DNA of 64,000 nt from an uncultured Candidatus Saccharibacteria bacterium (GTDB lineage Bacteria; Patescibacteriota; Minisyncoccia; UBA6257). The notes beneath the pieces were generated by a model. It made no database searches and had not been told where the DNA came from. It was given only the letters and a program-made list of their open reading frames with translations. Location: the NCBI GenBank assembly GCA_964618625.1, contig CAZUBI010000001.1, positions 332,266 to 396,265 of the forward strand. Direction: 5' to 3'. This document shows, in pieces, positions 920-15,366 of the stretch. A program made the translations under genes and the position numbers. Positions within the stretch are counted from its first letter, which is position 1. Each line of letters begins with the position of its first letter.

Positions 920-1820
920 CTTTTTCTACAACAGAAATTAGATAATTTAATAACTCTCTCCAGTTATCGAAATGTTTTTCCCTAAGAAAATCGGGAAGCT
1001 TTTTCGAATCTTCTTCTGGATTTGGCGGTTTTGGTTTAGACCTCATAACCGCTTTTTTATCACCAAGATCAGGTAAGTTCTTATCAGCCAACTCTTTTAA
1101 AACTTCGTTCTTATGATTCAAGTAAGACCCTATTTTGAGAAACTGATTTGCGTAAATCTTTACTTGATGTTCCTTTGCCCAAAATCCTTTATCCCTTTTA
1201 AATTCGGGGTCTCTAAAATTTGGATGCCCGAAGTCAATTGTTTGTATTGGGACATCGAGATTAGAAAGTAGTTTGAACAGGTCAACAATAACAAGCCAAT
1301 TTCTCTGATCAACTTCCAAATAAATCCTGTGTTGGTTTTCTTTTCCAAAGGCAGCGTTTGATTTTCTTATATGTCCAGTGGTATCGAAATAGCCACGCAA
1401 GAATTCTTTTTGTATTTCTTTATCTGCTTCAAATATTGCCGTTGGTATTCTGAAAGAATGAAAATCAACGAATTCATCATTGAGAAGATACTTCAGCACT
1501 TGCCACGATAAATCTTCTCCGTGCCATGTAAGAATCAATGCTACGTCATTTTGGTTTGTATTATCTTTAGAAACATCGAAGCCGTAATGCCGTATCCTAT
1601 TTACTATCGTGTCTAAACTACTGGACAATTCAAGAGAAGTATCGTATGACTTTGTGTAGCCAACAGCACCCAAGCTTTTATAAGGGAATGTAATTGAAAG
1701 GCGTTTTGTTTGTCCATCACGCATGAAAATTCCCTTACCGACTACCAAACCCAGAAGGTATGCGATATCCTCGTTTAAAAAGTCTGAAATTTTATTAGTT
1801 TTGTCCATATTATTTTTCAA
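912..1820 (-). CDS. Free-standing LAGLIDADG-fold protein with degenerate catalytic positions, paralogous to the endonuclease domain of the gyrB intein
   Basis: Two LAGLIDADG-like motifs are present: LNEDIAYLLGLVVGKGIF and IQKEFLRGYFDTTGHI. They closely match the gyrB intein-2 motifs LNEDFAYLLGFYIGDGCF and IQQAFLRGYLESDGSI. Position 8 of each motif is K/T rather than D. The gene overlaps the methyltransferase gene by 11 nt. Confidence 0.5.
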   Translation of the reverse strand: MKNNMDKTNKISDFLNEDIAYLLGLVVGKGIFMRDGQTKRLSITFPYKSLGAVGYTKSYDTSLELSSSLDTIVNRIRHYGFDVSKDNTNQNDVALILTWHGEDLSWQVLKYLLNDEFVDFHSFRIPTAIFEADKEIQKEFLRGYFDTTGHIRKSNAAFGKENQHRIYLEVDQRNWLVIVDLFKLLSNLDVPIQTIDFGHPNFRDPEFKRDKGFWAKEHQVKIYANQFLKIGSYLNHKNEVLKELADKNLPDLGDKKAVMRSKPKPPNPEEDSKKLPDFLREKHFDNWRELLNYLISVVEKDE

Positions 1821-3657
1821 AAATTAAAATATACTCATGAACTTTATTCACGATAAAACTATAAGGATATCCTAGGGGTTTTAGATTATTATATTCTTTC
1901 TGTCTGTCCCAAATCGCTATATCTCGCTGCTTGAAACCTATGTCTTGTAATTTATTAGCCAAGTCAGAATGAAAAGGATAAAAGTTTGATTTTTTTCTGA
2001 TATCCATAACGATTACAGCACAGAACCCACCACTTTGTAATGAGATGTAGACGTTTTTAAATATATTCTGAAGAGATATTAAAAACTCCTCATAGTCGTG
2101 TAGATTTCCTAAATCTTGTTTACTATCTCCATAATTTACTATTTTTTTATTGTCCGCCGTTCTTCTTTCATTCAAGATATCCCAATATGGTGGTGAAGTA
2201 ATACATAACTTCACAGAATTTGGTTTAACGTGTTTACTTAAATTCAAAGCATCGTCAACGAATAATTCATATCTGCCTTTCTTATTAAAATCTTTATAAT
2301 GGGTAGAGAGGCGTTTTTTGCAAAGTTTAATATATTCTTTGTTGAGATCTATTCCTACTGCCTTTCTATCTTTTCTTAATGCAGCGATGACCACGCTACC
2401 GCTACCCACCATGGGATCAAGGACAATGGAAGTTTTTTTGCCAGTGTAAATATCTATAAGTCGTTCCGCTAAAGAAATTGGAAATATTGCTGGGTGATCA
2501 AGTGTTGACTCTTCCGAATTCTTTGAAATATCTCGCCAGATGCTAAACGAATTTTGCAACCACCTAGATCCATTCAGTCTATTAAACCTGTCTTTAAGTC
2601 CGTTTATACTAACAACATATAAACGTTCGTTTGTAGAATTAGGATCATTGCTGGTCTGGTTTATGCTCCTGTATCTTTTATGGCTCTGTTGATAAAGTTT
2701 TAAATCGCCCTTTTGAGATAGAATATTATTAATAGTGGGATCGGAAATTATGCCTTCGTTATTATAACTAAGAAGTATGTGGCGGGCTTTAGCTTTTTTG
2801 ATTAAATCTGCAAATACTTTTTGTGCTGTAGATTTTTGGCAGTAGAGCGATTTTTTTGATTCGTCAAAGTAAATACCGGTTTTGCTTTTCGGTAGTATCT
2901 TTACTTCTTTATCAAACCAACCTGTAGCAATTAGTTCAAGTAAAAAATAATTGGAAACGAATTGGCGAGTGTTGTAAGGTGGATCTAAATATAGAATATC
3001 CGTAGAAATTCTTCCTACAATATCATTTGCATCGGACTTAAATGCCTTATTAACTCTTTTGCTGGGAATAATTTCTGGTGGTGTTAGTGTTAGTGATTTC
3101 AAAGCCCTTTTGTCCCACTTTTTGAGAAAAGCACCGTAAGTGCCCGCAACATTTGATACAAGATTTACAGCTTCAATTAAAGCGGTAATCAAGTAGTAGT
3201 ATTCTAATTCTGTAATCTTGTTGTTATCTTTCCATTCCTCGATTTGAGTTCTAATTGTATCAATCTTCTTACCATTTTCATCAGAAAAATATTTTCTAAT
3301 TTTTTTAGTTCCGGTGGGACAATAATTTTTATATATAAATCCCTCTGTTGGTTTAAGCTTATTAAGGTAGTTTATAACTTTCTCATAAGTTTCTTTACCT
3401 TTATTATTATCAACTACTTTTTTTAACTTTCTAAGCTTGGGGTATTCATTTAATTCAATGTATGTTTTCGCTAAAGCGTAGCAAAATTCAAGATTGTCAT
3501 TAGCGATAACTGTGTAACCTAATTTCTTAAAATGTTTAGCCACGGCCGTAGTTCCAGTAAAAAGATCAAAAAACTTTGCGCCCTCGTAGAGATCGAGGTT
3601 CTTTGATGCCTCTTCAATAAATTTTAAGAGTTTTGTTTTACAGCCGTAGTATCTCAT
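1810..3657 (-). CDS. Fused dual DNA methyltransferase: an N-terminal Dam-like (D12 class) m6A domain plus a C-terminal N4/N6 (SPPY-type) domain
   Basis: N-terminal half: RYYGCK, FDLFTGTTAV and ILYLDPPYNT (Dam motifs I and IV). C-terminal half: HPAIFPISLAERLI...LDPMVGSGS (motifs X and I) and CITSPPYWD (motif IV). The protein is 615 aa. Confidence 0.8.
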   Translation of the reverse strand: MRYYGCKTKLLKFIEEASKNLDLYEGAKFFDLFTGTTAVAKHFKKLGYTVIANDNLEFCYALAKTYIELNEYPKLRKLKKVVDNNKGKETYEKVINYLNKLKPTEGFIYKNYCPTGTKKIRKYFSDENGKKIDTIRTQIEEWKDNNKITELEYYYLITALIEAVNLVSNVAGTYGAFLKKWDKRALKSLTLTPPEIIPSKRVNKAFKSDANDIVGRISTDILYLDPPYNTRQFVSNYFLLELIATGWFDKEVKILPKSKTGIYFDESKKSLYCQKSTAQKVFADLIKKAKARHILLSYNNEGIISDPTINNILSQKGDLKLYQQSHKRYRSINQTSNDPNSTNERLYVVSINGLKDRFNRLNGSRWLQNSFSIWRDISKNSEESTLDHPAIFPISLAERLIDIYTGKKTSIVLDPMVGSGSVVIAALRKDRKAVGIDLNKEYIKLCKKRLSTHYKDFNKKGRYELFVDDALNLSKHVKPNSVKLCITSPPYWDILNERRTADNKKIVNYGDSKQDLGNLHDYEEFLISLQNIFKNVYISLQSGGFCAVIVMDIRKKSNFYPFHSDLANKLQDIGFKQRDIAIWDRQKEYNNLKPLGYPYSFIVNKVHEYILIFEK

Positions 3658-3660
3658 AGC

Positions 3661-3840
3661 TTAGTTTTTCTTATTACTATTTTGGTCAATAAAGCAATCA
3701 ATGTCTGTAGCTTTTACTCTCCATTGACCTATCTTTGACGCATTTAATCTTTTCGCCTTGATATAGCGCATAATAGTGTGCTCACTAACGCGTAACTTTT
3801 GTACTATCTCTTTTATATTTAAGAAGTTTTCTTTAGCCAT
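3661..3840 (-). CDS. Small HTH DNA-binding protein of the excisionase/MerR-like HTH_17 type (59 aa), a candidate controller of the R-M operon
   Basis: This ORF is not in the supplied track because it is shorter than 60 aa. It translates as MAKENFLNIKEIVQKLRVSEHTIMRYIKAKRLNASKIGQWRVKATDIDCFIDQNSNKKN. It starts 3 nt after the methyltransferase gene. Confidence 0.5.
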   Translation of the reverse strand: MAKENFLNIKEIVQKLRVSEHTIMRYIKAKRLNASKIGQWRVKATDIDCFIDQNSNKKN

Positions 3841-3882
3841 ATGTCCTTTACATATACTTATACTTAATTCTATTATAGCAGT

Positions 3883-3934
3883 TTGTCATATTTTGTCACC
3901 CACAAGCCCTGTCACGTATTGTCATATTTTGTCA
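3883..3934. promoter_or_regulatory. Array of five TGTCA half-sites with 10-bp phasing, a putative operator in the promoter of the HTH and methyltransferase operon
   Basis: TGTCA occurs at 3884, 3894, 3910, 3920 and 3930. TTGTCATATTTTGTCA is repeated twice. Confidence 0.4.
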
Positions 3935-4048
3935 TTTAATATAAAATAAAATTACGACATGCTATTATTAAACATAAAGCATTCCAAGCTATGATTAAAT
4001 ATTTTCTTTACGCCCGCAAATCAACTTTATGGTCTATTTAAAATAAAA

Positions 4049-4081
4049 AAGGCTTTCCTAAGTCCATGTTAGGAAAGCCTT
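4049..4081. terminator. Bidirectional rho-independent terminator hairpin
   Basis: AAGGCTTTCCTAA-gtccatg-TTAGGAAAGCCTT forms a perfect 13-bp stem flanked by an A-run and a T-run. It lies just after the stop of the minus-strand gene 4099..4419. Confidence 0.55.
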
Positions 4082-4098
4082 GATTGTATTGTTTTCTT

Positions 4099-4419
4099 TT
4101 ATTTTTTCAATACCTCTTTCTTAAAAGCAAAAATCTTCTTAAGTCGCTGAATCTGACAGTATTTCTCCCCATCATATTCAACGATCGCCTTCTTGTATTT
4201 TGCCTGCAATGATGACGAAGGTATAAGAATAAAATTCTTTACCTTCTTTGTTTTTTTATCCATATCTCTCTTGTCATGTTCTTCACCAATCACCTGATCA
4301 GTTTCTTTCAAAAAATCTTCCCAAAATTCCCGTTCTTCTGGGCTCATTTTTGAAAGAGTAAACTCATTAAGAGGTACTCCTAACTGACTAGGCGACCTAA
4401 ATCCTCCGCACATACACAT
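4099..4419 (-). CDS. Hypothetical protein
   Basis: ORF of 106 aa in the track; the true start may be an internal Met (MSPEEREFWEDF). No recognisable motif. Confidence 0.3.
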   Translation of the reverse strand: MCMCGGFRSPSQLGVPLNEFTLSKMSPEEREFWEDFLKETDQVIGEEHDKRDMDKKTKKVKNFILIPSSSLQAKYKKAIVEYDGEKYCQIQRLKKIFAFKKEVLKK

Positions 4420-4455
4420 AATTTCATTCCTCCTTTTTTCTATTTATATCTAATC

Positions 4456-4944
4456 TTAAAAAGTAAATCTTTCTTCCATCTGTTTTACTGCAGGAGATCT
4501 ATAAACACCAGACATAATAATCTTCTCGTGCATTTCCATTAAAAATTTCGTTGGTGTAAGAAACATGGGATCTTCCTTTTTTCTTTCAGATATTATCCGT
4601 TGTGCTTCTACCAAAAAATCTTCTAAAATTCGTTTTTTTTCTTTTGAGATTTTTGAACCAGATGGATATAGTTCTTCTTCAAATTTCATAGATTCACTCT
4701 CTCCTATTTCTATAACCTCCATTATAACTTTTAGTATGACTGGCCTGGAATTCTTATTTATCATTTTTTTACAGTCTTCTACTTTTTCCAGCGCTTCCTC
4801 CCAAGAACAACCCACAATATCATAATGCCTAAAATCATTAATATTCTTCGGATCATTATGAACTGGGTAGATTATAAACCCCATTGCCATTGTCCCCGGT
4901 TCCTTAAAAGCCAATTCTCTCAAAATCTGCACTCCTGGTTTCAC
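4456..4944 (-). CDS. Hypothetical protein
   Basis: ORF of 162 aa with no recognisable motif. Confidence 0.3.
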   Translation of the reverse strand: MKPGVQILRELAFKEPGTMAMGFIIYPVHNDPKNINDFRHYDIVGCSWEEALEKVEDCKKMINKNSRPVILKVIMEVIEIGESESMKFEEELYPSGSKISKEKKRILEDFLVEAQRIISERKKEDPMFLTPTKFLMEMHEKIIMSGVYRSPAVKQMEERFTF

Positions 4945-4970
4945 TTTCTTTAATCCTCCTTTTCAAATTT

Positions 4971-5168
4971 TTAATTTTTATCTTTCTTTTCATCCTTATT
5001 AATAGACAACAATGCTTCAATTAACCATTTACCTACAATAATAAAAATCAATATATTTCTATGATATTCCGACAACATAGGAACAAAACCTAACAAACTT
5101 AACACCAAAAATATCGTAATTGCAACATTGAAAATAATTCCCAATAAATACTTATTTGATTTTGTCAT
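4971..5168 (-). CDS. Small hydrophobic membrane protein (hypothetical)
   Basis: 65 aa with two predicted TM segments. Confidence 0.3.
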   Translation of the reverse strand: MTKSNKYLLGIIFNVAITIFLVLSLLGFVPMLSEYHRNILIFIIVGKWLIEALLSINKDEKKDKN

Positions 5169-5364
5169 ATTTTACCTCCTTTAATAAAATTTTTAATAAT
5201 ACACACCAGGAAACTGACTACTAATAAAGATAACAACCAATTTCCTTGTGTGTATCAGAAGATATTGTTTTTCAAAGAACTAAAAATACCCTAATTATAG
5301 GATATTATAAACATAACATATTTAATCGTAAAGGTCAACTCCGAAAACTAAGCGATGCTAGAAT

Positions 5365-5916
5365 CTACTGAACCAATTTCTTATATATTTTATAAGCTGT
5401 CATCGTTCCGTTTATAGCTCGATGAGGCATTGGCTCTTCTGGGACTCCAAGTCTCTTTGCCGCTTCATTCAAACTAAATTTTTCACAGCTTGAGTTTCGA
5501 AGCTTCATCCAAATCATGGTAAAAAGGTCAACGCGATGATGGTCCATCTGGTTTTTAATGCCAGTTTTCTTAAACGCTTCAAAAACAAAAGACCAATCAA
5601 AAGTCACATTGTGAGCGCAAAATATCGCGCCTTTTGTCTTTTCGCCATAGAGAGACATAGCTTCTTTAAGCGTTATGGCGTTTTTCCAATCAGTTTCATT
5701 ATATCCATTTAGCTTTAGCGCAAATTCATCTGCTGTTTCAATATGTTCAGGCTTTACCTTAATATCGAGAGTATCCAGAATCTCAAGACTTTGTTGATTG
5801 ATTACAACCAATCCGATTTCAATAATCTCTTGAATTGCGAAATCAAGACCAGTAGTTTCAACGTCAGTAATAGCAATTGGTCTTTCAAAAATATGGGTTG
5901 TATGTTCTTGCTTCAT
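5365..5916 (-). CDS. DEDDh 3'-5' exonuclease (DnaQ/epsilon-like)
   Basis: Exo I motif ITDVETTGLD, Exo II motif HNVTFDWSFV and Exo III motif HRAINGTMTAYKIY are present; 183 aa. Confidence 0.7.
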   Translation of the reverse strand: MKQEHTTHIFERPIAITDVETTGLDFAIQEIIEIGLVVINQQSLEILDTLDIKVKPEHIETADEFALKLNGYNETDWKNAITLKEAMSLYGEKTKGAIFCAHNVTFDWSFVFEAFKKTGIKNQMDHHRVDLFTMIWMKLRNSSCEKFSLNEAAKRLGVPEEPMPHRAINGTMTAYKIYKKLVQ

Positions 5917-5943
5917 TTTATTAATATTAATTTAGAAAATAAA

Positions 5944-6414
5944 CTACAGATCTAATCTCATTTTTAATCTAAAATCAAAAAAACCATATTTTCTCCAGGC
6001 TTTAAGACCTATTTTATTTCTAGCATCAACAGTAAGCTGAATGTGCTTAACTTTCTTACTTTTAAACCATTTCAATAATTCTTTAAATATCTTCTTGCCA
6101 ATACCTTGATTTCTATATTCCTTTTCAATAAAAGCATCATAAATTACTCCAATTTTTTTTGGGGGAACATAGTTGGGAGCTTTTTCTATTACTCCCATAA
6201 AATATCCAATAACTTTTTCGTTTTCCTCAGCAATGATAATTTTTGTATTTCTATCTTTCATTAATTTCTCAAAATGATCCCTAATTTCTATATAATCATA
6301 ACCAGAACGATCTTTATAGTATTTATCAATAACTCGATGGTAGTCTACTATCTGTTTCACTGATTTAACTATAAATTGGATATCTTGTTTTGTAGCATTC
6401 CTTATTAACATCAT
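5944..6414 (-). CDS. GNAT family N-acetyltransferase
   Basis: GNAT motif A is present: YRNQGIGKKIFKELLKW...HIQLTVDARN. Confidence 0.7.
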   Translation of the reverse strand: MMLIRNATKQDIQFIVKSVKQIVDYHRVIDKYYKDRSGYDYIEIRDHFEKLMKDRNTKIIIAEENEKVIGYFMGVIEKAPNYVPPKKIGVIYDAFIEKEYRNQGIGKKIFKELLKWFKSKKVKHIQLTVDARNKIGLKAWRKYGFFDFRLKMRLDL

Positions 6415-6432
6415 ATACCTTTATTCTACCAA

Positions 6433-6455
6433 AAAATCGCCTCTTTGGCGATTTT
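6433..6455 (-). terminator. Terminator hairpin AAAATCGCC-tcttt-GGCGATTTT, with a T-run on the minus strand, after the 6608..7519 gene
   Basis: Inverted repeat read directly. A near-identical hairpin lies at 9705..9727. Confidence 0.45.
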
Positions 6456-6493
6456 GATGTATCTCGGTCTCTCGATAAAAAAGTTAGGCGGCT

Positions 6494-6518
6494 GGGGCTA
6501 TAGAACGATGTTGGAACC
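6494..6518. repeat. Intergenic tRNA-like motif GGGGCTATAGAACGATGTTGGAACC (copy A)
   Basis: A near-identical copy is at 7574..7598 and a related one at 9733..9754. The flank ggcgattttgatgta (6447..6461) is also repeated at 7555..7569. Confidence 0.4.
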
Positions 6519-6607
6519 TTTTTGACTCAATATAATAGCCTTTTAGGTGCTTAACAACATATTAAATTAAATAATAAAACCATTTATTTGCCTTCTTTCT
6601 TTTTCTT

Positions 6608-7519
6608 TCATTTTTTTATATTTATATAAGTAGTTAGACCGTCGTCGCCCATTTTCTTCTTACATTTATCACAATAGTCTTGATTATAGAGACTATAGGG
6701 ATAAGCAGAAATATTTGGAATAAAGCTTTTCCCACAACTGGAACATTTTTTAGACTTTACTCCTACAGTTACAGTATTGCTATTAGGATCAAATAAATAT
6801 GAATTAATGTCATAATCGCCAAGAGAACTTGCAGTTAGCGGAGTGCCATGAACTATCTGTGATCGTTCTTTTGTAATTTCCTTTATTTGTTTTTCTAAAT
6901 CATTAATTTTTTCCTTTAGTTCTTTTTCTACTTCTTTATTTTTGGCTACCACAAGTTCTTTTCTCTTATCAAGTAACTCAACCATAACTGATTGTCTAAC
7001 CTTTTTATACTTTTTGTCTACTTCTTTTATTTCTTTCCTTTCTTTTTCCCTATCTTGAATTTTTTCTTTCAATCCTGGAACAATATCGCCCCAATCCTCA
7101 AGACCAGAATTAATACTAAATTCGGCAGTTGAAATATGACGATTAATTTCTTCAAGGGCTCGTTTATATTCTTTTTTCTCCTTTATCTTTAAAAAATGAA
7201 CAATCCATACCCTTATATCTCGAAGCTGTTTGCTGACACCTTGAAGATTACGGAGTGCGGAAAGACCTTTCTTTTCAAGAATATTTTTACCGGACGCTCG
7301 ATCATATTCATCCTTGAAAAAAGCACCAGCGAAACCACCAAATAAACTTCCAATAATAGCCATCAGGTTTGAAAATTGAAGGTTATCCTTATAAGAGATT
7401 GACAAATATAAAGCAACACCTGTTAAAAAAACAAAAAACAAAAATCCCGAATTGAAAAAAGCACTGAGTATAATAGATCTATTTTTAATAAAATCTGAAT
7501 GTATCGACTTATCACTCAT
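6608..7519 (-). CDS. Membrane protein with two N-terminal TM helices, a long coiled coil and a C-terminal zinc ribbon (hypothetical)
   Basis: Hydrophobic N-terminus, a K/E-rich heptad region, and C-terminal CSSCGKS...CDKCKKK. Confidence 0.4.
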   Translation of the reverse strand: MSDKSIHSDFIKNRSIILSAFFNSGFLFFVFLTGVALYLSISYKDNLQFSNLMAIIGSLFGGFAGAFFKDEYDRASGKNILEKKGLSALRNLQGVSKQLRDIRVWIVHFLKIKEKKEYKRALEEINRHISTAEFSINSGLEDWGDIVPGLKEKIQDREKERKEIKEVDKKYKKVRQSVMVELLDKRKELVVAKNKEVEKELKEKINDLEKQIKEITKERSQIVHGTPLTASSLGDYDINSYLFDPNSNTVTVGVKSKKCSSCGKSFIPNISAYPYSLYNQDYCDKCKKKMGDDGLTTYINIKK

Positions 7520-7573
7520 ATTAAAATTTCTTAAGATTTAAACTTTTCGGACATAGGCGATTTTAATATACAT

Positions 7574-7598
7574 GGGGCTATGGAACGATGTTGGAACC
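7574..7598. repeat. Intergenic tRNA-like motif (copy B)
   Basis: GGGGCTATGGAACGATGTTGGAACC, preceded by ggcgattttaatata. Confidence 0.4.
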
Positions 7599-7622
7599 TA
7601 TTTGGCCTTAAATTAAGTTATA

Positions 7623-7892
7623 TTAAGATTTCTTTTTTGAATCAGGCAAATATTTATAATCTTCTTCAATTTCAGTCCGTTCACCAATAGGAAGATTTTT
7701 AATAAAATCCGGATGTTTTCCAAATAATTCTTTTAATATTTCGTCTGCTCTTCTCGATAGTTTTGGAACTACATAAACTACTTCTTCCTTAGCAACTTCG
7801 CCTTCTTTCAACTTATGCACCTTCTTTACTTCAGTAATTAATTCTTTATATTCTTTATATAATTCCTCGGGTTCTTGTTTTTTATTTTCCAT
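7623..7892 (-). CDS. Hypothetical protein, last gene of the SMODS/SLATT operon
   Basis: 89 aa, same strand, 36 nt downstream of the SLATT gene. Confidence 0.3.
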   Translation of the reverse strand: MENKKQEPEELYKEYKELITEVKKVHKLKEGEVAKEEVVYVVPKLSRRADEILKELFGKHPDFIKNLPIGERTEIEEDYKYLPDSKKKS

Positions 7893-7928
7893 ATTTATAA
7901 ATTTTATTTTTATTTTTTTATTTTGGAA

Positions 7929-8444
7929 TTATTCTACTTTGTATTGTGCCTCTCCATCTTTAATACCTTCTTTAGCTTTAAGAAAAGCCCACTTCGGAAT
8001 TTGTGGTGATTTATTATTCAACTTATCTCGTTCTGTGCATAGAGTCTTTAGATTTTCCAGCAAGCTCTCATCTGTTTCTAAATCTACATCGATTTCACCA
8101 AAAATCCGAGAGCGATTTCTAAGATTATTATAGCGATTTCCTGCATTGTGATGAGTAATTGCTTTTTCGTTAGGATTTATGAATGTTGAAACAGCACTAG
8201 TTGTAGAAACAATAATTGCTAAAAGCCCAGCAACAATTTGATGATTATTAAATTGAGACAAGGCAGAAGCCCCTGCGATTGCTGCCATTATTGAAACAGA
8301 TACACCAATCCATAAATGGAAACTTGCCCAAGATTGAGCAGCATAAAAATGTCCCTTGGAGGAATATAAAGAATCTTCTTCTATTCTTTTTGCTTCTTTT
8401 ATTATTTTTTCCTTAGTTTCCATATACTGGGAATTTATTTCCAA
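7929..8444 (-). CDS. SLATT-like two-TM effector protein
   Basis: 171 aa: an N-terminal helix, two TM helices (SFHLWIGVSVSIMAAIAGASAL and IVAGLLAIIVSTTSAVSTFI) and a C-terminal region HHNAGNRYNNLRNRSRIF. It overlaps the upstream nucleotidyltransferase gene by 32 nt. Confidence 0.45.
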   Translation of the reverse strand: MEINSQYMETKEKIIKEAKRIEEDSLYSSKGHFYAAQSWASFHLWIGVSVSIMAAIAGASALSQFNNHQIVAGLLAIIVSTTSAVSTFINPNEKAITHHNAGNRYNNLRNRSRIFGEIDVDLETDESLLENLKTLCTERDKLNNKSPQIPKWAFLKAKEGIKDGEAQYKVE

Positions 8445-9279
8445 AAATTTGTCTCCATAAATTTATCGCTTTTTCATGATCATTGCTGTCCCCATAAGTA
8501 TAGTACCATGCATCTCGTGCTTTATCTCTCGCTGTTTCAAGCCTCTTTACTGCTTCATTTCGCTTATTGTAATCAAGATAGTTGTCAATATAATCTCCTT
8601 CATGCCAAAAAGATAATTTTACCAATTCCATAGCCTTGTCGAAATATTGAAAGATATTCCACGGATAATCAGACAATTTGCCACTAAAAATTTTCAATGC
8701 AATAACCTCAATATGAAATGATTGAAGAAATGAGCTATGCTGGTGATTCCACCATTTTATCATTTTTACAATTCTCTTAAAGAATTCACCGCATACCTTA
8801 TTTTTATCGCTCATTGCCGTAGAGTGTTTACGTGGCCTTGATTGAATCCATGTTTCATTATTCATGTCTGGAACACTATAATAATTTACACTACCATCAT
8901 TGTTCGTAGTGCGAGATACTGGAACAATATCTACATTAGGCCATGTTTTGTAATGAAGTGTTACGGCTTGTCCATTCTTGCGAACATTCGTTTTATACCC
9001 TGCAAGTGTATCACGAACATTTTGGAGTATTTGAGAAGGTTTCTTGTTTTCTATATGTTTACCATAATGCAAAACTACAATCACATCAAGATCAGCATAT
9101 CCTTTTACTGCCGTATATCTAGGAATGGAACCAGAAGTAAATGCCTCAATTATTGTGAAGTCATTTTCTAATGATGATATAATATCGTCTTTTCTTTTGT
9201 TTGCTATATCACGATGATTTCCTGTTAGCTCTATATTTTCTCGGAATTTATCAAAAGATACTGGTACAGTATAAGGCAT
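8413..9279 (-). CDS. SMODS / CD-NTase-like nucleotidyltransferase
   Basis: GS...[DE]h[DE]h motif: TSGSIPRYTAVKGYADLDVIVVL. A third acidic residue is in NVDIVPV. 288 aa. Confidence 0.6.
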   Translation of the reverse strand: MPYTVPVSFDKFRENIELTGNHRDIANKRKDDIISSLENDFTIIEAFTSGSIPRYTAVKGYADLDVIVVLHYGKHIENKKPSQILQNVRDTLAGYKTNVRKNGQAVTLHYKTWPNVDIVPVSRTTNNDGSVNYYSVPDMNNETWIQSRPRKHSTAMSDKNKVCGEFFKRIVKMIKWWNHQHSSFLQSFHIEVIALKIFSGKLSDYPWNIFQYFDKAMELVKLSFWHEGDYIDNYLDYNKRNEAVKRLETARDKARDAWYYTYGDSNDHEKAINLWRQIFGNKFPVYGN

Positions 9280-9338
9280 ATTTTTATTTTAATTTTTAAA
9301 TTAATTTTTCGACCTTTTTAATTTTTTCTTTCATAGAT

Positions 9339-9650
9339 TCATTTATTTTGCTCTTTCTTCGCTGAATTAAAAATATTAGCTTCTATCTTTTTCATTATTT
9401 TTCCGCTAATAGATATATAAACAATAAAAGATAAAACAATTGTTGTGATTCCAGCTATCCAAGAAAAAATAAAAAACGTAGCAATAATTAATATCACCCC
9501 TAAAATAATAAGAGAATTATTCCAAATTAAAGCATTTGGTTTTTTAGATAGAATCTCCTTGGACCAAGTATTATTAACAGCAATGTAGGTAATAATCAAC
9601 ATTAATCCTAGCAATAGTAAATAGAAAATGTTTCCAAAAAATTCAAACAT
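9339..9650 (-). CDS. Hypothetical membrane protein with three TM helices
   Basis: 103 aa, strongly hydrophobic. Confidence 0.35.
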   Translation of the reverse strand: MFEFFGNIFYLLLLGLMLIITYIAVNNTWSKEILSKKPNALIWNNSLIILGVILIIATFFIFSWIAGITTIVLSFIVYISISGKIMKKIEANIFNSAKKEQNK

Positions 9651-9704
9651 AAATTTATTTTAACTTCTTTCACCACGCCTACTACCCATTGTTTATTTTA
9701 CCAA

Positions 9705-9727
9705 AAAATCGCCTCTCTGGCGATTCT
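9705..9727 (-). terminator. Terminator hairpin AAAATCGCC-tctct-GGCGATTCT after rpsP, a paralogue of the 6433..6455 hairpin
   Basis: Inverted repeat followed by a T-run on the minus strand. Confidence 0.45.
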
Positions 9728-9732
9728 AATTT

Positions 9733-9754
9733 GCTGGGGGACTAGGATTCGAAC
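9733..9754. repeat. tRNA 3'-end-like fragment (minus-strand reading GTTCGAATCCTAGTCCCCCAGC), copy C of the island-bounding motif
   Basis: On the minus strand it reads as a T-loop TTCGAAT, then a stem, then an acceptor-like TCCCCCA. No full tRNA is present. Confidence 0.35.
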
Positions 9755-9786
9755 TTTAAAATAAATAACTCAAAATAGTTATTTTT

Positions 9787-10347
9787 CTATTTTTCTCTGT
9801 TGCTTTTCTTTTTAACTTTTTCTTTGACCTCTTTTTCTTTTTTCTTTTCCTTTTTTGGCTCCTCTTTCTTTTCTTTAGCTTTTTCTTCAGGTTTTGCTTC
9901 AGCTGGCTTCTCTTCAGGTTTTGTCTCATCTTTTGTTTCTTCAACAGGTTTCTCTTCTACCTTTTCTTCAGATTCTTCCTCAGGCTTATCTTTGGTTGGT
10001 TTTTCTTCAATCTTCTCTTCAGTTGCTGGCACCTGCTCCATCTTTTCTCCAGTTTCAGCTTTTACTTTTTTCTCTTTTTTCTTTCTAATAGTAATGGGCC
10101 TTTTTTTGCCTTCAATAATTTTTGCTCGTATTAAAAGATTATAGCAAGAATCTGAAGGTTGAGCCCCTTGACTAATCCAATAAAGAATTCTTTCTTTTTT
10201 TAATTCAAATTTATTTATTCGCGGATCCCACCATCCTAAAATTTCTTTTGATTTGCCGCTATTAACAGCTATTTTAGAATCTACGGCTATTATCCGAAAA
10301 ATAAAATCCCTTTTTTTACCTTGTCTTTGAAATCGTAAAGTTAACAT
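9787..10347 (-). CDS. rpsP: 30S ribosomal protein S16 with a long Lys/Glu/Pro-rich C-terminal tail
   Basis: The N-terminus MLTLRFQRQGKKRDFIFRIIAVDS is a bS16 signature. The tail is about 100 aa of K/E/P low complexity. Confidence 0.85.
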   Translation of the reverse strand: MLTLRFQRQGKKRDFIFRIIAVDSKIAVNSGKSKEILGWWDPRINKFELKKERILYWISQGAQPSDSCYNLLIRAKIIEGKKRPITIRKKKEKKVKAETGEKMEQVPATEEKIEEKPTKDKPEEESEEKVEEKPVEETKDETKPEEKPAEAKPEEKAKEKKEEPKKEKKKEKEVKEKVKKKSNREK

Positions 10348-10387
10348 AGTTTATACATCCTAATTGAAAACATTTAAAAAGTCAATT

Positions 10388-13300
10388 TTATATATCCAAA
10401 TTTCTTACTTTTTGGGCATAAGCTTGAATGAATTTTTTCCTTGGTAATACTTCTTTACCCATTAAAATATCAAATAATCTATCTGCCTCTTCTGCGTCTT
10501 CAATAGTAACTTGCTTCAAAACCCTCTTCTCAGGATCCATAGTTGTATCCCATAATTGATCTGGGTTCATTTCTCCTAACCCTTTGTATCGTTGAATAGA
10601 AATTCCTTTCATTAATTCTTCGTTGCTGCCATCAGAAAGTTCTTCTTTTTCTACAGCTAAAATAGCTTCATCTTTACCTTCTTCAACTAATTTTAATTTT
10701 CGCACCTTGGATTTGGAAAGCTTTCCCTTTTTTTCTTCAACTTTGCCTTGTATTTTTTCCAATACTTTTTGTTTTTCTGCCTCTGTATAGGCGTAATGAA
10801 ATTCTTTGCCTTTTTGAATCCGATACAGAGGAGGTTGCGCAATATAAAGATATCCAGCTTCAATAATTGGTCTGAAGTAGCGGAAAAACAATGTTAAAAG
10901 CAAGCTGCGGATATGAGCACCATCAGTATTATGAAGTAAAAATCCACCAGTACCAGCAACAAAATTTTCATCTTTTTTAACGGCAAAATCATAAACAAAA
11001 GGAATCTCCGTTTTAATCTTTTTTATTGAAGTTATTGGCAAAAGAACTGAATCACCAATGCGAATCTTTTTATAGCTACTTCTTCTCCTATCAGCTTTAA
11101 CAAGATAATTTTCTAATGCTTTGCTCCTCTTGTGATTTTTCCAAACATCTTTTAATCTCTCCAATTGACTAATTCCTTTAACCGAGATAAGACGTCCTGG
11201 ATAATTACTTCTTATCATTACCCCGTCTTTGCGCAGATGGTCTTTTGAAAATCGCATAGTACTTTCAGGAAAAATGCCAAGTTGGCGAAATAGCAAAACA
11301 ATACCGTCTGATAAATTTTCTGAGGCAGTGGTAAAAGTTAATTTTACATCTAATTTCTCTTTACAAGATTTTACAACAATACTTCCATCGCTTTCTAAGT
11401 AACCACGTAGGAAAGCTTGTTGAATTTTTGGATTGACACTAAAAATTTCCTCTGGAACAAACTTTTCATATGATTTCTTTCCCAAAAGCCCTAAAGATTG
11501 AAGGATTAATTTAAATTCATATGAATGAAATACTAATTGATTGTTGTTATCATTTCTTTTATCTATGAATGCTTTTGCTCCTAAAACATTATCTATGGCC
11601 TTAATAAGTTCTGGGCTATACAATTTTTTGTCTCTTCCTAAAGATAAAATAAAACGATTAGGGTTCTTTTTTTGAGACGCAAAACAACCATCGCCAATAT
11701 AAAAACCTAAGAGATAAGCAAAATCTTCATTAAGGTCAAATGCAACTTTGAGTTTTCGGGTGTGATTTTTAAAATAATACTCAATAGCATCGCTAGTTTC
11801 CAAACACGAAGATAAAGGAATGTATGCCGAAGCGTTTTTTAAAACTTTTTTTTCTTCTAAATTCAATCCCGTAAGATACTCTTTAAAAATTTTATAACGA
11901 GGCATAACATTATCAATCTTCAACTCCCATTGCTCTAATACTGTAGTATAAACTCCAATAGCTACCCCCAATCTTTTTCTCGATATTCCTTTTCCCTGAC
12001 GCCTTAATTGAAGTTTTTGCCAGTATTTAGAACTAATATCAATCCAAGCATCATTAGGAATAAACTTCATCTTTGAAGCCAGAACTTTTATTTGAATATT
12101 TTTTGCTTCTTCAGAATGTTTTAAAAGCGGGCTGATATCTATTTTTATCTTTTGATTTAACCGAGACATTGAAGCAGGAAAAACAATTCTGTCGCCAATC
12201 TTTAATTTTGTAGTTGGTACTGTGATAAAATTTCCATAACGATAAACAAACACATTATGGCATGAGGTTATTTTCATCTTATATCCATAGCGAGTTTTTA
12301 TCTCATAAAGGCTGCCTCTTAATGGATGACGTATTGTTTTTTCAATATCTCTTAAAGAAAAAGTTTTTTTGTCTAAATCACAAGCAAAAACCTGATATCT
12401 TTCTGTATCCTGACATTGGTTTTCTATAAATTCACCTGTTTTTACTAATTTTAATCTTTGTTGTTGTTTATCAAAAACAAAAATTGGCGTATCATAAGCC
12501 ACGCTATCAGCGTCAGTCATTATGACAATCTTATGATAACGAAGTTTATCAATATTAAAATCTTCACTTATTGCTGTTCCCAAAGCCACAATTAAAGCCT
12601 TTATTTCTTCGGAAGCCATCATTCTGTCAAAGCGACTTTTTTCTACATTCAAAATCTTGCCTTTTAAAGGGAGAATTGCTTGTGTGTTTCTGTTTCTCCC
12701 CATTTTTGAGCTATTATGAACAAATATACCACTTGATAACGCAAAATTATGTGTCCCTGGAACTTCTATATCGTAAACATCTATCTTTTCCTGTAATAGA
12801 ATTATTGATTTAATTCGATGATTATAATTAACGACTGCCTCATGTAATTTTTTCTCATCCCCTGCAAAAAATCTTTGGCAAATTGTATTATACCTTATAA
12901 GAGTTTTATCGTTTGTATTTTTTCTAATTAAATTATAAGAATCTTTATTAATTTTATTCTCCTTTTGATAAATTTCATACAAAACCTCTATGCATCTTCT
13001 TAGATATGTTTTGTTATAAGAAATTATCCTTTTTTTTCTAAATTCATCTGTCCATTGTTTTTTAGTCATTTCGGATCGCCAGTTTCTTAAATTTAAATTA
13101 TCCCATTGTTTCTTTGCTAATTCCGAATATTCCTTTTTCTTATCTGGATGATTTTCAAAGTATTCTTTAGTTCTTTTAGATTGTTTCTCTCTATTTTGCC
13201 AATCAGCCCAATATCTTTTTTGGGACTGATCAAGAATCTTTTTGCTTTTTGCCCTATATTCTGCATTGTTATTATAAAACTCCAAAAATTTTTGAGCCAT

Positions 13301-15361
13301 ATAGTTTTTGTACTCCTCGTTCTGCCATTGTTTCTTTGCCCTTTTGCTTAGCATCTTTTTCATCTCAGGCGTAGACATAATTTTTCTAATCTTTTCTCTA
13401 TACTCGATTGATTTGTGTGCTTGTCTGGCTTTTTCTATTACATCGGGGCGACGCAGAGTATGTTCTATATAATCATAATGGAGGTTCATATGCTGTTTGT
13501 AAGAAAATCGCTGAATGTTTATTGGATTATTATTTAATTTATTAAAATCTAAATGATGACGATGTTTTCCATCAGAAACTGAATAAATACCATTTTCAAG
13601 ATTAAATATATCAGCCAATATATGGGTATACATCCATTTCCTGGCTTTAGGGTCAAAGACCATTTCGTAACCATCTAAACCATATTTTCCTTGCCTCTTT
13701 GACACTTCTCGATAAAGAGGAGCAATGCTGTGTTGAGGAGTCAACTGAATAGCGGAAATATAACTACCATCAACTAATCTAAACCGATGATCAGGAGTAC
13801 AAATTAATTCCTCTCCATTGTCTAAAATAATTTTAATAACTTTTGTATTCTTTTTAGTCATCCTCGGGTCTAATATGGAAGCAATACCAATGTGTCCATT
13901 ATTCTGTATGGTGTAACAAAAATTTTTCTTGCCCTGCTTGTATTCTTTAATTAATGCTTTAAAAGAAAGATTACGTCCATCAGTTAATGCAATCTCTGTA
14001 TCTCCACTCCAACACCCGCCGGCAGAATCGCCCTCAACTATAAACAATTCTGATTCTTCTGCATTTTTTGAAATACAATCAGCTAATTTTCCAGGTAAAG
14101 TCATTCCTTCTAAAACCCCTTTTCTAAGAATATTCTCTCGAGCTTTTTTGGCAGCTTGTCGGGCTCGAGCGCTTAATAAAGATTTTTCAAGAATCCTTTT
14201 GGCGTCTTCCTTGTTGGCTTCTAAAAACTCTTTAAAGTTTTCCCCCACAACTTGTTCTACGGCAGTTCGCGCTTCTGGATTTCCTAATTTTGCTTTTGTT
14301 TGCCCTTCAAATTGAGGCTCTCTTAATTTTACACTGACTACGGTCACTAATCCTTCGCGAGTGTCTTCTCCACTAAAACCAATATCCCCATTTTTAAATA
14401 TTCCCTGCTCTTTGGCATAATCGTTTAAAGTTCTGGTTAATGCTGATCGAAAACCAGTCAAATGCATTCCTCCTTCTGGAGTATGAATATTATTAGCAAA
14501 AGCTTTTTCTGTACTCTCAGAATCATCGGTATAAAGCAAGGCAACCTCAACTAAAATTCCTTCTTTCTCTTGCTTGACATAAAAAATATTATTAGTTAAA
14601 CAATGAGCAGTTCTTGCCAAATATTGAACTAAAGTAATAATTCCGCTTTCAAAATAAAAAGTATAAGAAGGAAGAAGAGCGCTTTCTCTATTATCTTCAA
14701 ATTTAATTGTAGTACCTGATGTGAGATATGCCTGTTGTCTTAAATGATCAAGAATCTTTTTTGTATCAAACTTAATTTCTTTAAAGATTTCCGGATCTGG
14801 CTCAAAAATGATTTTTGTTCCAGATTTTTCGCATTTGCCTATTTTTTTAAGTTTTGTCTTTGGTTTTCCTCGATTATATTCTTGGCTATATAACATTCCA
14901 TCACGGCAGATTTCTGCTTGTAAATATTCTGAAAGGGCATTCACAACTGAAATCCCTACGCCGTGCAATCCTCCAGCTACTTTATAGGATTTTCCTCCAA
15001 ATTTTCCACCAGCATGCAAAGTACACATTACAGTTTCCAATGCTGATTTTTTCGTCTTTTTATGAATGTCCACAGGAATTCCTCTTCCATCATCTGTTAC
15101 AGCCACTTTATTTTCTTTCAATATCTGTACTTTAATATTTTTGGCATAACCACCCATTGCTTCGTCAATCGAATTATCTACACATTCCCAAATTAAATGA
15201 TGCAAGCCCTCGGGACCAGTAGATCCAATATACATACCAGGTCTTTTTCGAACCGGGTCCAATCCTTCTAAGACATAAATATCTTTAGCTGTGTAGGAAT
15301 TCTCCTCTATATTATTAAGAGAATCTTTAACTTTTTTTGTTTTTTTTACAGGTTTAATCAT
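10388..15361 (-). CDS. gyrB: DNA gyrase subunit B precursor containing two inteins
   Basis: GHKL ATPase N-terminus, the EGDSAGG motif, and IMTDAD...DGAHIRSLLLTLFFR. The mature length would be about 697 aa. The two inteins are 434 aa and 526 aa. Confidence 0.9.
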   Translation of the reverse strand: MIKPVKKTKKVKDSLNNIEENSYTAKDIYVLEGLDPVRKRPGMYIGSTGPEGLHHLIWECVDNSIDEAMGGYAKNIKVQILKENKVAVTDDGRGIPVDIHKKTKKSALETVMCTLHAGGKFGGKSYKVAGGLHGVGISVVNALSEYLQAEICRDGMLYSQEYNRGKPKTKLKKIGKCEKSGTKIIFEPDPEIFKEIKFDTKKILDHLRQQAYLTSGTTIKFEDNRESALLPSYTFYFESGIITLVQYLARTAHCLTNNIFYVKQEKEGILVEVALLYTDDSESTEKAFANNIHTPEGGMHLTGFRSALTRTLNDYAKEQGIFKNGDIGFSGEDTREGLVTVVSVKLREPQFEGQTKAKLGNPEARTAVEQVVGENFKEFLEANKEDAKRILEKSLLSARARQAAKKARENILRKGVLEGMTLPGKLADCISKNAEESELFIVEGDSAGGCWSGDTEIALTDGRNLSFKALIKEYKQGKKNFCYTIQNNGHIGIASILDPRMTKKNTKVIKIILDNGEELICTPDHRFRLVDGSYISAIQLTPQHSIAPLYREVSKRQGKYGLDGYEMVFDPKARKWMYTHILADIFNLENGIYSVSDGKHRHHLDFNKLNNNPINIQRFSYKQHMNLHYDYIEHTLRRPDVIEKARQAHKSIEYREKIRKIMSTPEMKKMLSKRAKKQWQNEEYKNYMAQKFLEFYNNNAEYRAKSKKILDQSQKRYWADWQNREKQSKRTKEYFENHPDKKKEYSELAKKQWDNLNLRNWRSEMTKKQWTDEFRKKRIISYNKTYLRRCIEVLYEIYQKENKINKDSYNLIRKNTNDKTLIRYNTICQRFFAGDEKKLHEAVVNYNHRIKSIILLQEKIDVYDIEVPGTHNFALSSGIFVHNSSKMGRNRNTQAILPLKGKILNVEKSRFDRMMASEEIKALIVALGTAISEDFNIDKLRYHKIVIMTDADSVAYDTPIFVFDKQQQRLKLVKTGEFIENQCQDTERYQVFACDLDKKTFSLRDIEKTIRHPLRGSLYEIKTRYGYKMKITSCHNVFVYRYGNFITVPTTKLKIGDRIVFPASMSRLNQKIKIDISPLLKHSEEAKNIQIKVLASKMKFIPNDAWIDISSKYWQKLQLRRQGKGISRKRLGVAIGVYTTVLEQWELKIDNVMPRYKIFKEYLTGLNLEEKKVLKNASAYIPLSSCLETSDAIEYYFKNHTRKLKVAFDLNEDFAYLLGFYIGDGCFASQKKNPNRFILSLGRDKKLYSPELIKAIDNVLGAKAFIDKRNDNNNQLVFHSYEFKLILQSLGLLGKKSYEKFVPEEIFSVNPKIQQAFLRGYLESDGSIVVKSCKEKLDVKLTFTTASENLSDGIVLLFRQLGIFPESTMRFSKDHLRKDGVMIRSNYPGRLISVKGISQLERLKDVWKNHKRSKALENYLVKADRRRSSYKKIRIGDSVLLPITSIKKIKTEIPFVYDFAVKKDENFVAGTGGFLLHNTDGAHIRSLLLTLFFRYFRPIIEAGYLYIAQPPLYRIQKGKEFHYAYTEAEKQKVLEKIQGKVEEKKGKLSKSKVRKLKLVEEGKDEAILAVEKEELSDGSNEELMKGISIQRYKGLGEMNPDQLWDTTMDPEKRVLKQVTIEDAEEADRLFDILMGKEVLPRKKFIQAYAQKVRNLDI
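10928..12505 (-). mobile_element. gyrB intein 2 (526 aa) with a LAGLIDADG homing endonuclease domain, inserted in TDAD|(V)DG
   Basis: It starts SVAYDT and ends FLLHN, followed by T+1. The LAGLIDADG motifs FAYLLGFYIGDGCF and FLRGYLESDGSI keep the catalytic Asp. Confidence 0.75.
12713..14014 (-). mobile_element. gyrB intein 1 (434 aa) with an HNH-type homing endonuclease domain, inserted after EGDSAGG
   Basis: It starts CWSGDTEIAL and ends FVHN, followed by S+1. The TPDHRF block B is present. The HNH region is GKHRHHLDFNKLNNNPINIQ...QHMNLH. Confidence 0.7.
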
Positions 15362-15366
15362 ATTAA

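What the first reader, a model, noticed from the sequence alone, without database searches (positions are those of the whole stretch)
7623..9279. SMODS nucleotidyltransferase plus SLATT two-TM effector operon (minimal CBASS-like conflict system) in a small-genome symbiont-type bacterium
The 288-aa ORF has the GS-x9-DhD nucleotidyltransferase signature (GSIPRYTAVKGYADLDVIVV) and a downstream acidic residue (NVDIVP), typical of SMODS/CD-NTase enzymes. Overlapping its 3' end by 32 nt is a 171-aa protein with an N-terminal helix, two TM helices and a conserved C-terminal region, which is the SLATT architecture. An 89-aa ORF follows. SMODS plus SLATT pairs are predicted second-messenger-triggered membrane-disrupting abortive-infection systems. 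The cassette sits in a repeat-bounded accessory segment beside rpsP.
Basis: partly seen in the sequence, partly recalled or inferred. Interest (0 to 1): 0.75.

Follow-up and report, generated by a model that had tools for sequence, protein, structure and literature searches.

The report
Two-gene Type I CBASS cassette
This is an ordinary, intact two-gene anti-phage suicide system (a cGAS-like signal-making enzyme plus a small membrane-damaging protein) of an already catalogued family, sitting as a 1.4-kb insertion in the genome of an uncultured, probably ultra-small (Parcubacteria-like) bacterium.

Summary
On the minus strand there is a 288-aa ORF (9279..8413), an overlapping 2-TM ORF (start 8423 or 8444, end 7929) and an 89-aa ORF (7892..7623).

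The interpretation also holds.
- The 288-aa protein matches Pfam SMODS (76 bits, cutoff 26.5) and a PADLOC CBASS cyclase model end to end (E 1e-104).
- Its AlphaFold model (pLDDT 88) superposes on P. aeruginosa CdnD (TM 0.85).
- GS/DxD/D are conserved in 44-45 of 45 relatives.
- The second protein is a SLATT_4 2TM effector (NCBIfam 141 bits, cutoff 55; PADLOC 2TM E 4e-62).
- No Cap2/Cap3 or HORMA/TRIP13 genes are nearby, so this is Type I CBASS.

Corrections:
- The motif is GS-x11-DxD, not x9.
- The effector most likely starts at ATG 8423 (164 aa), giving an 11-nt overlap conserved in relatives, not 32 nt.
- The 89-aa ORF is not part of the system. Its only homologue lies in a related contig that lacks CBASS.
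- That contig defines a 1389-nt indel (9298..7910) holding exactly the two genes.

The same cyclase family occurs in 50 genomes of many phyla, including other CPR bacteria, paired with 2TM or 4TM effectors. This is a new member of a known kind, of low interest.

The parts
8413..9279 (-). CD-NTase / SMODS cyclase, 288 aa, closest to clade D; catalytic G50 S51, D63, D65, D117
   Evidence: Pfam SMODS 3.9e-21. PADLOC Cyclase PDLC00823 1.1e-104, full length. PDB phmmer best hit PaCdnD 6p82, 2.7e-21. AF2 pLDDT 88, Foldseek TM 0.85 to 6p82. Catalytic residues kept in 44-45 of 45 relatives.
7929..8423 (-). SLATT_4 two-TM effector, 164 aa from ATG 8423 (alternative TTG start at 8444 gives 171 aa). Layout: N-terminal cytosolic helix, TM hairpin (about residues 33-55 and 62-82), C-terminal helical region of about 80 aa.
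   Evidence: NCBIfam SLATT_4 140.7 bits, cutoff 55. PADLOC 2TM effector PDLC00712 3.8e-62. 398 homologues, the closest 164-165 aa. Hydropathy peaks. AF2 pLDDT 84, all helical.
8413..8423 (-). 11-nt gene overlap ATGGAAACTAA (effector start inside the cyclase stop region); probable translational coupling
   Evidence: Sequence. The same TATGGAAnnTAA junction occurs in L004, L006 and L014.
7910..9298 (-). 1389-nt indel unit: 19 nt + cyclase + effector + 19 nt. It is absent from related contig L054, which has 'GAG' at this position.
   Evidence: blastn of L054 against the window: 88% identity over 7909..7573, and a shared left flank through 9299.
9695..9725 (-). Terminator-like hairpin after rpsP (copy a of the 39-nt repeat). 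The cassette lies downstream of it, so it needs a promoter between here and 9279.
   Evidence: the repeat finder D3. Unique pair in the window. RNA fold -11.9 kcal/mol, z -3.85, followed by U6.

Best explanation
This is a Type I CBASS operon, an abortive-infection anti-phage system with only two genes.

Proposed mechanism:
1. The 288-aa CD-NTase, closest to clade D enzymes such as P. aeruginosa CdnD, stays inactive until phage infection. The trigger is unknown. For other Type I systems it involves phage virion-assembly proteins.
2. The enzyme then makes a cyclic oligonucleotide from NTPs at its GS / D63xD65 / D117 active site. By analogy with clade D, the product is possibly a cyclic trinucleotide.
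3. The signal is sensed by the cytosolic parts of the 164-aa SLATT_4 protein. These are the conserved N-terminal helix and the C-terminal helical region.
4. The SLATT_4 protein then oligomerises through its two-helix membrane hairpin and permeabilises the cell membrane. The infected cell dies or stops growing before phage are released.

What is shown and what is inferred:
- Shown here: family membership of both proteins, intact catalytic residues, CD-NTase fold, two TM segments, tight conserved gene overlap, absence of Type II/III accessory genes, and a discrete two-gene indel.
- Inferred: phage trigger, nucleotide identity, ligand binding by the effector, pore formation, and activity in this host.
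For: - Both proteins match curated models: Pfam, PADLOC and NCBIfam hits.
- CD-NTase fold, with every top PDB hit a bacterial CD-NTase; best is PaCdnD at TM 0.85, rmsd 2.8 A.
- G50, S51, D65 and D117 are kept in 45 of 45 relatives at 39-83% identity, and D63 in 44 of 45.
- In 44 of 50 genomic loci with this cyclase family, the adjacent gene is a 2TM (8 loci) or 4TM (36 loci) CBASS effector; it lies immediately downstream in all but a few (upstream in L031, about 0.9-1 kb away in L037 and L049).
- Neighbouring ORFs give no Cap2/Cap3, HORMA or TRIP13 hits.
- The 11-nt overlap is conserved.
- The cassette is a discrete 1389-nt indel relative to L054.
- Richmond-Buccola et al. (bioRxiv 10.1101/2023.05.21.541620) report that Type I CBASS mostly uses clade D, E and F cyclases with 2- or 4-TM effectors. 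They show that CdnD12-4TM and CdnF04-SLATT6 operons protect E. coli from phage.
Against: - There are no functional data for this cassette or for any SLATT_4 effector of this subfamily.
- No solved structure resembles the effector model (best Foldseek E 0.54), so ligand binding and pore formation rest on analogy.
- NCBIfam's CBASS_cyclase_b equivalog scores 153.9 bits, below its cutoff of 200.
- Only 19 nt separate the insertion edge from the cyclase ATG. No promoter signal above chance was found, so expression depends on upstream read-through and is unverified.
Confidence: 0.88

Rival explanations
1. A three-gene system in which the 89-aa ORF (7892..7623) is a regulator, antitoxin or third component of the CBASS operon.
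For: It is on the same strand, 36 nt downstream of the effector, with no terminator hairpin between them.
Against: None of the 50 other cyclase loci has a homologue. Only one homologue was found in the search of 5.8 billion proteins, which needs shared 5-residue words (P0245, 73% identical). That homologue sits in contig L054 without cyclase or SLATT. The sequence shared with L054 starts 17 nt upstream of the orf89 ATG, so orf89 belongs to the flank. It matches no family in Pfam, PADLOC, NCBIfam or PHROGs.
Confidence: 0.04
2. Inverse ('guard') signalling as in Panoptes. The cyclase is constitutively active, its nucleotide keeps the TM effector closed, and phage sponges or nucleases that deplete the nucleotide release the effector.
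For: Small cyclase plus 2TM-effector pairs can work this way (Nature 2025, PMC12657230). How Type I cyclases are activated is still unresolved.
Against: Panoptes uses an mCpol (Cas10-like palm) cyclase and a Cap15-like beta-barrel 2TM effector. Here the cyclase is a SMODS/CD-NTase and the effector is an all-helical SLATT_4. Type I CBASS operons with TM effectors show cyclase-dependent toxicity, meaning the active cyclase kills.
Confidence: 0.04
3. A selfish or inert passenger. The cassette was acquired horizontally and is either not expressed or persists as an addiction-like module, without serving phage defence in this host.
For: It is a discrete indel with only 19-nt margins and no recognisable promoter of its own. 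The family shows extensive horizontal spread across phyla.
Against: Both ORFs are intact, with all catalytic and family-invariant residues. The protein is 100% identical in contigs from three sequencing runs. Cassette GC (0.332) is indistinguishable from the genome (0.32 +/- 0.02), which is compatible with long residence or with a donor of similar GC. Relatives at 74-85% identity keep the same architecture.
Confidence: 0.06

Closest known systems
Type I CBASS with 2TM (SLATT) effector (PADLOC cbass_type_I; Cyclase PDLC00823 + 2TM Effector PDLC00712)
   Same: Both proteins match these models over their full length (E 1.1e-104 and 3.8e-62). The order is cyclase then effector, with overlapping genes and no accessory genes.
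   Different: Nothing architectural differs. The host lineage (a Parcubacteria-like CPR bacterium) is unusual among studied examples. No member of this exact subfamily was found among the experimentally tested operons I read.
P. aeruginosa ATCC27853 CdnD (PDB 6P82/6P8J), a clade D CD-NTase of a Type III CBASS
   Same: It is the best sequence and fold match among solved structures: phmmer 2.7e-21 over residues 5-285, and Foldseek TM 0.85 at 25% identity. It has the same GS-x11-DxD motif.
   Different: PaCdnD is controlled by HORMA and TRIP13 partners and signals to the NucC nuclease. Neither gene type is present here, and the effector is a membrane protein.
E. coli CdnD12-4TM and CdnF04-SLATT6 Type I CBASS operons (Richmond-Buccola et al. 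2023, bioRxiv 10.1101/2023.05.21.541620)
   Same: Two-gene Type I operons with TM effectors that give phage defence. 36 of 50 relatives of this cyclase pair with 4TM effectors.
   Different: I did not measure sequence identity to those specific proteins, because their sequences are not held here. The effector here is SLATT_4, not SLATT_6 or 4TM.
Panoptes (mCpol + 2TM-beta effector)
   Same: A minimal two-gene cyclic-nucleotide system with a two-TM effector that causes abortive infection.
   Different: It has a different cyclase superfamily (Cas10-like palm against Pol-beta-like SMODS), a different effector fold (Cap15-like beta-barrel against all-helical SLATT), and inverse signalling logic.

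Membership tests
CD-NTase / SMODS (CBASS cyclase) | Sequence match to the SMODS / CBASS cyclase profiles above curated thresholds | tested here: met
   Pfam PF18144 SMODS 76.4 bits against a 26.5 cutoff. PADLOC Cyclase PDLC00823 348 bits, residues 1-287 on profile 1-285 of 285.
CD-NTase / SMODS (CBASS cyclase) | NCBIfam equivalog 'CBASS oligonucleotide cyclase' above its cutoff | tested here: not met
   NF041117 CBASS_cyclase_b scores 153.9 bits against a cutoff of 200, although the alignment is full length, 9-280 on 1-275. This is a naming threshold for one subfamily, not a test of the superfamily.
CD-NTase / SMODS (CBASS cyclase) | Pol-beta-like catalytic motif GS...[DE]x[DE] plus a third acidic residue | tested here: met
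   G50 S51, D63 L64 D65 and D117 (in NVDIVP). They are invariant in 19 homologues and kept in 44-45 of 45 relatives down to 39% identity. Assigning D117 as the third carboxylate rests on the hDhhP motif and its conservation, not on model coordinates.
CD-NTase / SMODS (CBASS cyclase) | cGAS/DncV-like bilobed fold (NTase core plus C-terminal helical lobe) | tested here: met
   AF2 model pLDDT 88.1, pTM 0.80. The 50 listed Foldseek PDB hits are bacterial CD-NTases, DncV or cGAS. The best is 6p82 at E 1.8e-19, TM 0.85, rmsd 2.8 A.
CD-NTase / SMODS (CBASS cyclase) | Synthesis of a cyclic oligonucleotide | not testable with these tools
   Needs enzyme assays.
SLATT_4 two-TM effector | Match to SLATT_4 profiles above curated thresholds | tested here: met
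   NCBIfam NF033632 140.7 bits against 55. Pfam PF18186 30.8 bits against 27. PADLOC 2TM Effector PDLC00712 207 bits.
SLATT_4 two-TM effector | Two transmembrane helices forming a hairpin, flanked by cytosolic helical regions | tested here: met
   Kyte-Doolittle peaks at about residues 46 and 72. The AF2 model has helices H3-57, H62-115, H118-138 and H144-155, pLDDT 84.
SLATT_4 two-TM effector | Genomic association with a SMODS (or SLOG) nucleotide enzyme | tested here: met
   It lies immediately downstream of, and overlaps, the cyclase here and in 8 of 50 related loci.
Type I CBASS (as opposed to Types II-IV) | Cyclase plus effector only, with no Cap2/Cap3 (E1/E2/JAB), no HORMA/TRIP13 and no QueC/TGT/OGG accessory genes | tested here: met
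   ORFs scanned from 443 to 18983 give no such hits in Pfam or PADLOC. Not every ORF went through both libraries, and the 65-aa ORF at 4971..5168, pheT and pheS had Pfam only. The indel unit holds only the two genes.
Type I CBASS (as opposed to Types II-IV) | Phage defence by abortive infection | not testable with these tools
   Needs phage challenge in a heterologous or native host.
Panoptes | mCpol (Cas10-like GGDD palm) cyclase and Cap15-like beta-barrel 2TM effector | tested here: not met
   The cyclase is SMODS. The effector model is all helical, with no beta-barrel. Family definition from PMC12657230.

The most novel reading that the evidence does not exclude
In ultra-small, host-attached CPR bacteria, this minimal cyclase plus SLATT_4 cassette may move between lineages as a bare two-gene unit, without any recombinase and with margins of only 19 nt. 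It may be the preferred CBASS form for these organisms: all four other CPR loci found carry the 2TM version, not the 4TM version. Its sensing or its effect on membrane integrity may be adapted to the epibiotic lifestyle, for example by sacrificing the epibiont cell on its host, rather than being a generic copy.
Probability: 0.1. Interest if true: 0.5.

Novelty: new member of a known kind. Interest (0 to 1): 0.2.

Why it matters
It adds little to what is known about CBASS. The subfamily already has dedicated PADLOC models and occurs in at least 50 species-level genomes across many phyla.

Two things give it modest value.
- It documents that a suicide-type, membrane-targeting defence is kept intact in a very small genome where every gene is costly. 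This fits a recent survey that found high defence density in CPR bacteria (PMC12259885).
- The comparison with a related contig gives an unusually clean view of a defence cassette as a 1.4-kb two-gene indel.

The SLATT_4 effector class still lacks any solved structure or biochemical mechanism. A compact, well-conserved 164-aa example could be a convenient subject for that work.

Tried and rejected
- **tRNA-linked island.** One intergenic repeat resembles a tRNA 3' end (GTTCGAATCC). ARAGORN found no tRNA within 29 kb, and Rfam found nothing credible in 4000-11000. Rejected.
- **More 'empty sites'.** I scanned JGI metagenome contigs with the 23-mer at the left junction. The four hits share no other similarity with the window, by blastn or tblastn. 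These are chance AT-rich matches.
- **Phage or plasmid carriage.** There is no phage record with a homologue. Only five plasmids carry distant copies (27-33% identity), all annotated as CBASS oligonucleotide cyclase.
- **Fold precedent for the effector.** Foldseek against the PDB gave nothing better than E 0.54.
- **Promoter and terminator scan.** Counts equal those of shuffled sequence. The scan missed the rpsP terminator hairpin, which folding confirmed.
- **Naming the organism.** The exact proteins are in NCBI on a 533-kb contig, but the tools returned neither name nor accession. The host assignment therefore rests on the nearest relatives of horizontally mobile genes and is tentative.
- **TTG start at 8444.** It has a GGAG 7 nt upstream, so it is not excluded. 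Conservation favours ATG 8423.
- **Composition.** Cassette GC is not distinguishable from the genome, so composition gives no evidence of recent transfer.

Full report
**Observation.**
- a 288-aa ORF at 9279..8413;
- a two-TM ORF ending at 7929, which is 171 aa if read from TTG 8444;
- an 89-aa ORF at 7892..7623.

Upstream lie a 103-aa membrane ORF (9650..9339), rpsP (10347..9787; Pfam Ribosomal_S16) and a gyrB interrupted by inteins. The quoted motif is present, but the spacing is G50-S51-x11-D63-L64-D65, not x9.

**Identity of the two proteins.** The 288-aa protein is a CBASS cyclase.
- It passes Pfam SMODS (76.4 bits against 26.5).
- It matches PADLOC CBASS cyclase model PDLC00823 from first to last residue (E 1.1e-104).
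- NCBIfam's CBASS_cyclase_b aligns full length but scores 153.9 bits, below its equivalog cutoff of 200. This explains why public annotation calls relatives only 'nucleotidyltransferase' or 'SMODS domain-containing'.
- Among solved structures, the best sequence match is P. aeruginosa CdnD (6p82, E 2.7e-21 over residues 5-285).
- An AlphaFold2 model built on 19 homologues has pLDDT 88 and pTM 0.80.
- Its best PDB fold matches are all bacterial CD-NTases, led by PaCdnD (TM 0.85, rmsd 2.8 A, 25% identity). E. cloacae and Salmonella CdnD, CdnC, CdnB, CdnE, CdnG, DncV and cGAS follow.
- G50, S51, D65 and D117 are kept in 45 of 45 relatives down to 39% identity, and D63 in 44 of 45.

I therefore place the enzyme nearest clade D. 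I did not place it on the reference CD-NTase tree.

The second protein is a SLATT_4 effector.
- It passes NCBIfam SLATT_4 (140.7 bits against 55) and Pfam SLATT_4 (30.8 against 27).
- It matches PADLOC 2TM effector PDLC00712 (E 3.8e-62).
- Hydropathy shows two moderately hydrophobic segments, rich in Ala, Gly and Ser, centred at residues 46 and 72.
- The AlphaFold model (pLDDT 84) is a long helical hairpin followed by two shorter helices.
- No solved structure resembles it.
- Invariant polar residues cluster in the N-terminal helix and in the region after TM2. That is where a ligand site would be expected. This point is inference.

**Gene boundaries.** The 32-nt overlap depends on the TTG start. 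Several results favour ATG 8423 instead.
- The closest homologues are 164-165 aa.
- The nearest non-self locus (L004, effector 76% identical) has no in-frame start upstream of the ATG.
- The junction TATGGAAnnTAA, where the effector ATG sits 8 nt before the cyclase stop codon (an 11-nt overlap), is conserved in L004, L006 and L014.

The effector is most likely 164 aa, with an 11-nt overlap that suggests translational coupling. The TTG has a GGAG 7 nt upstream and cannot be excluded.

**What belongs to the system.** PADLOC, Pfam and NCBIfam give nothing for the 89-aa and 103-aa ORFs. For the 303-aa ORF they give only weak coiled-coil noise. ORFs scanned further out (443-18983) show no Cap2/Cap3, HORMA, TRIP13 or Type IV genes. 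The architecture is therefore Type I.

The 89-aa ORF is not a component.
- None of 50 related loci has a homologue.
- Only one homologue was found in the search of 5.8 billion proteins (73% identical).
- That homologue lies on a 1.7-kb contig from another sample (L054) that has no cyclase or SLATT.

L054 is 88% identical in DNA to window 7909..7573, which covers orf89 and the repeat after it. It also shares the sequence ...GGTCGAAAAATTAATT that ends at window 9299. Between these two points L054 has 'GAG', while the window has 1389 nt (9298..7910). Those 1389 nt are 19 nt, the cyclase, the effector and another 19 nt. The two genes are thus a discrete indel, and orf89 is part of the conserved flank.

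Just upstream, the window keeps a 12-codon remnant (9334..9296, MKEKIKKVEKLI*). It corresponds to the start of a 76-aa membrane ORF that is intact in L054.

**Repeats.** The 'repeat-bounded' remark is partly right.
- A 39-nt element occurs at 9692-9730 and 6420-6458 (90% identical). It is unique in the window, with none expected by chance.
- On the coding strand it folds as a terminator-like hairpin followed by U6 (z -3.9 and -4.2).
- It brackets the 103-aa ORF, the cassette, orf89 and the 303-aa ORF together.
- A second 32-nt repeat (7573-7604 and 6493-6524, 94% identical) brackets the 303-aa ORF alone.
- There is no tRNA or integrase nearby.
- Cassette GC (0.332) is within the window's range (0.32 +/- 0.02).

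**Distribution.** The cyclase has 625 relatives at E <= 1e-10. The closest non-identical ones are 83-85% identical, and one of them is named as coming from a Parcubacteria-group MAG.

A scan of one genome per species found 50 loci. They include Parcubacteria (83%), Kaiserbacteria (65%), two Saccharibacteria including a complete oral taxon 488 genome (61-63%), an Actinomycetota MAG, and many Proteobacteria, Acidobacteriota, Streptomyces and others.

The adjacent gene is the SLATT_4 2TM effector in 8 loci. It is a PADLOC '4TM' effector in 36 loci, and nothing or a truncation in 6. The effector gene lies immediately downstream in all but a few of the 44 loci (upstream in L031, about 0.9-1 kb away in L037 and L049). 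All four CPR loci have the 2TM form.

This effector swapping on a conserved cyclase is the pattern already described for Type I CBASS. The same paper reports that clade D, E and F cyclases with 2- or 4-TM effectors make up most Type I operons. It also shows that CdnD12-4TM and CdnF04-SLATT6 operons defend E. coli (bioRxiv 10.1101/2023.05.21.541620).

No phage record carries a homologue, and only five plasmids carry distant copies.

**Mechanism.** The best-supported account is the standard one. The cyclase is activated on infection and makes a cyclic oligonucleotide. The SLATT_4 protein senses it and permeabilises the membrane, aborting the infection.

Everything after 'the two proteins are intact members of these families and are co-inherited as a unit' is inferred from the family, not shown here. 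A Panoptes-like inverse logic is unlikely, because that system uses a different cyclase superfamily and a beta-barrel effector (PMC12657230).

**Host and novelty.** The host is probably a CPR/Patescibacteria bacterium.
- The nearest relatives of both proteins are from such MAGs.
- GC is 32%.
- The longest public contig carrying these proteins is 533 kb.

I could not obtain a name, and these genes are mobile, so the assignment is tentative. Defence systems in CPR genomes have been surveyed, with high density per Mb reported (PMC12259885). Few of the papers searched mention CBASS together with Patescibacteria.

The cassette is a new, unannotated member of a known and already modelled kind. Interest is low.

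Noticed in passing
window 6608-7519 (-), with repeats at 6493-6524 and 7573-7604: A 303-aa ORF with one N-terminal TM segment, a long coiled coil and a C-terminal CxxC...CxxC motif. It belongs to an uncharacterised family (177 cluster representatives at E <= 1e-3, 27 at <= 1e-30, mostly 260-300 aa) with no Pfam, PADLOC or NCBIfam family. It is bracketed by a 32-nt direct repeat. A Logan contig (L055, seen in 7 samples) holds only this gene. Contigs L001-L003 and L054 all end inside the repeat, which suggests the module is variable in the population.
   Followed up: partly
window 6420-6458 and 9692-9730: Two copies (90% identical) of a terminator-like hairpin element, one after rpsP and one before the GNAT gene. 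The intergenic region 7520-7622 carries the 32-nt repeat plus only the 5' arm of this hairpin, as if a module had been inserted into a third copy.
   Followed up: partly
window 9296-9334 (-); L054 1116-1346: A 12-codon remnant (MKEKIKKVEKLI*) of a 76-aa membrane ORF that is intact in related contig L054. In L054 it follows a 168-aa ORF with no family match. The locus between rpsP and orf89 therefore carries different small genes in related strains.
   Followed up: partly
window 10388-15361 (-): gyrB of 1657 aa, interrupted by intein sequences (Pfam Intein_splicing and LAGLIDADG_3 on the precomputed annotation). The translation shows two insertions.
   Followed up: no
window 443-3657 (-): A 615-aa fusion of two DNA methyltransferase domains (D12-class N6-adenine plus N6_N4_Mtase; PADLOC MTase_II 1.9e-89). 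It is followed by overlapping 302-aa and 158-aa ORFs without Pfam families. The 158-aa ORF weakly hits PADLOC candidate PDC-M23A (1e-5). This is possibly a Type II restriction-modification system, which would make 0.4-9.7 kb a small defence island.
   Followed up: partly
window 5365-6414 (-): A DEDDh/RNase_T-family 3'-5' exonuclease (183 aa; PADLOC 'DEDDh' Cas-associated model 1.4e-22) next to a GNAT acetyltransferase (156 aa). No link to the CBASS cassette was found.
   Followed up: no
window 9787-10347 (-): Ribosomal protein S16 carries a C-terminal extension of about 100 residues that is rich in Lys and Glu, so it is twice the usual length.
   Followed up: no
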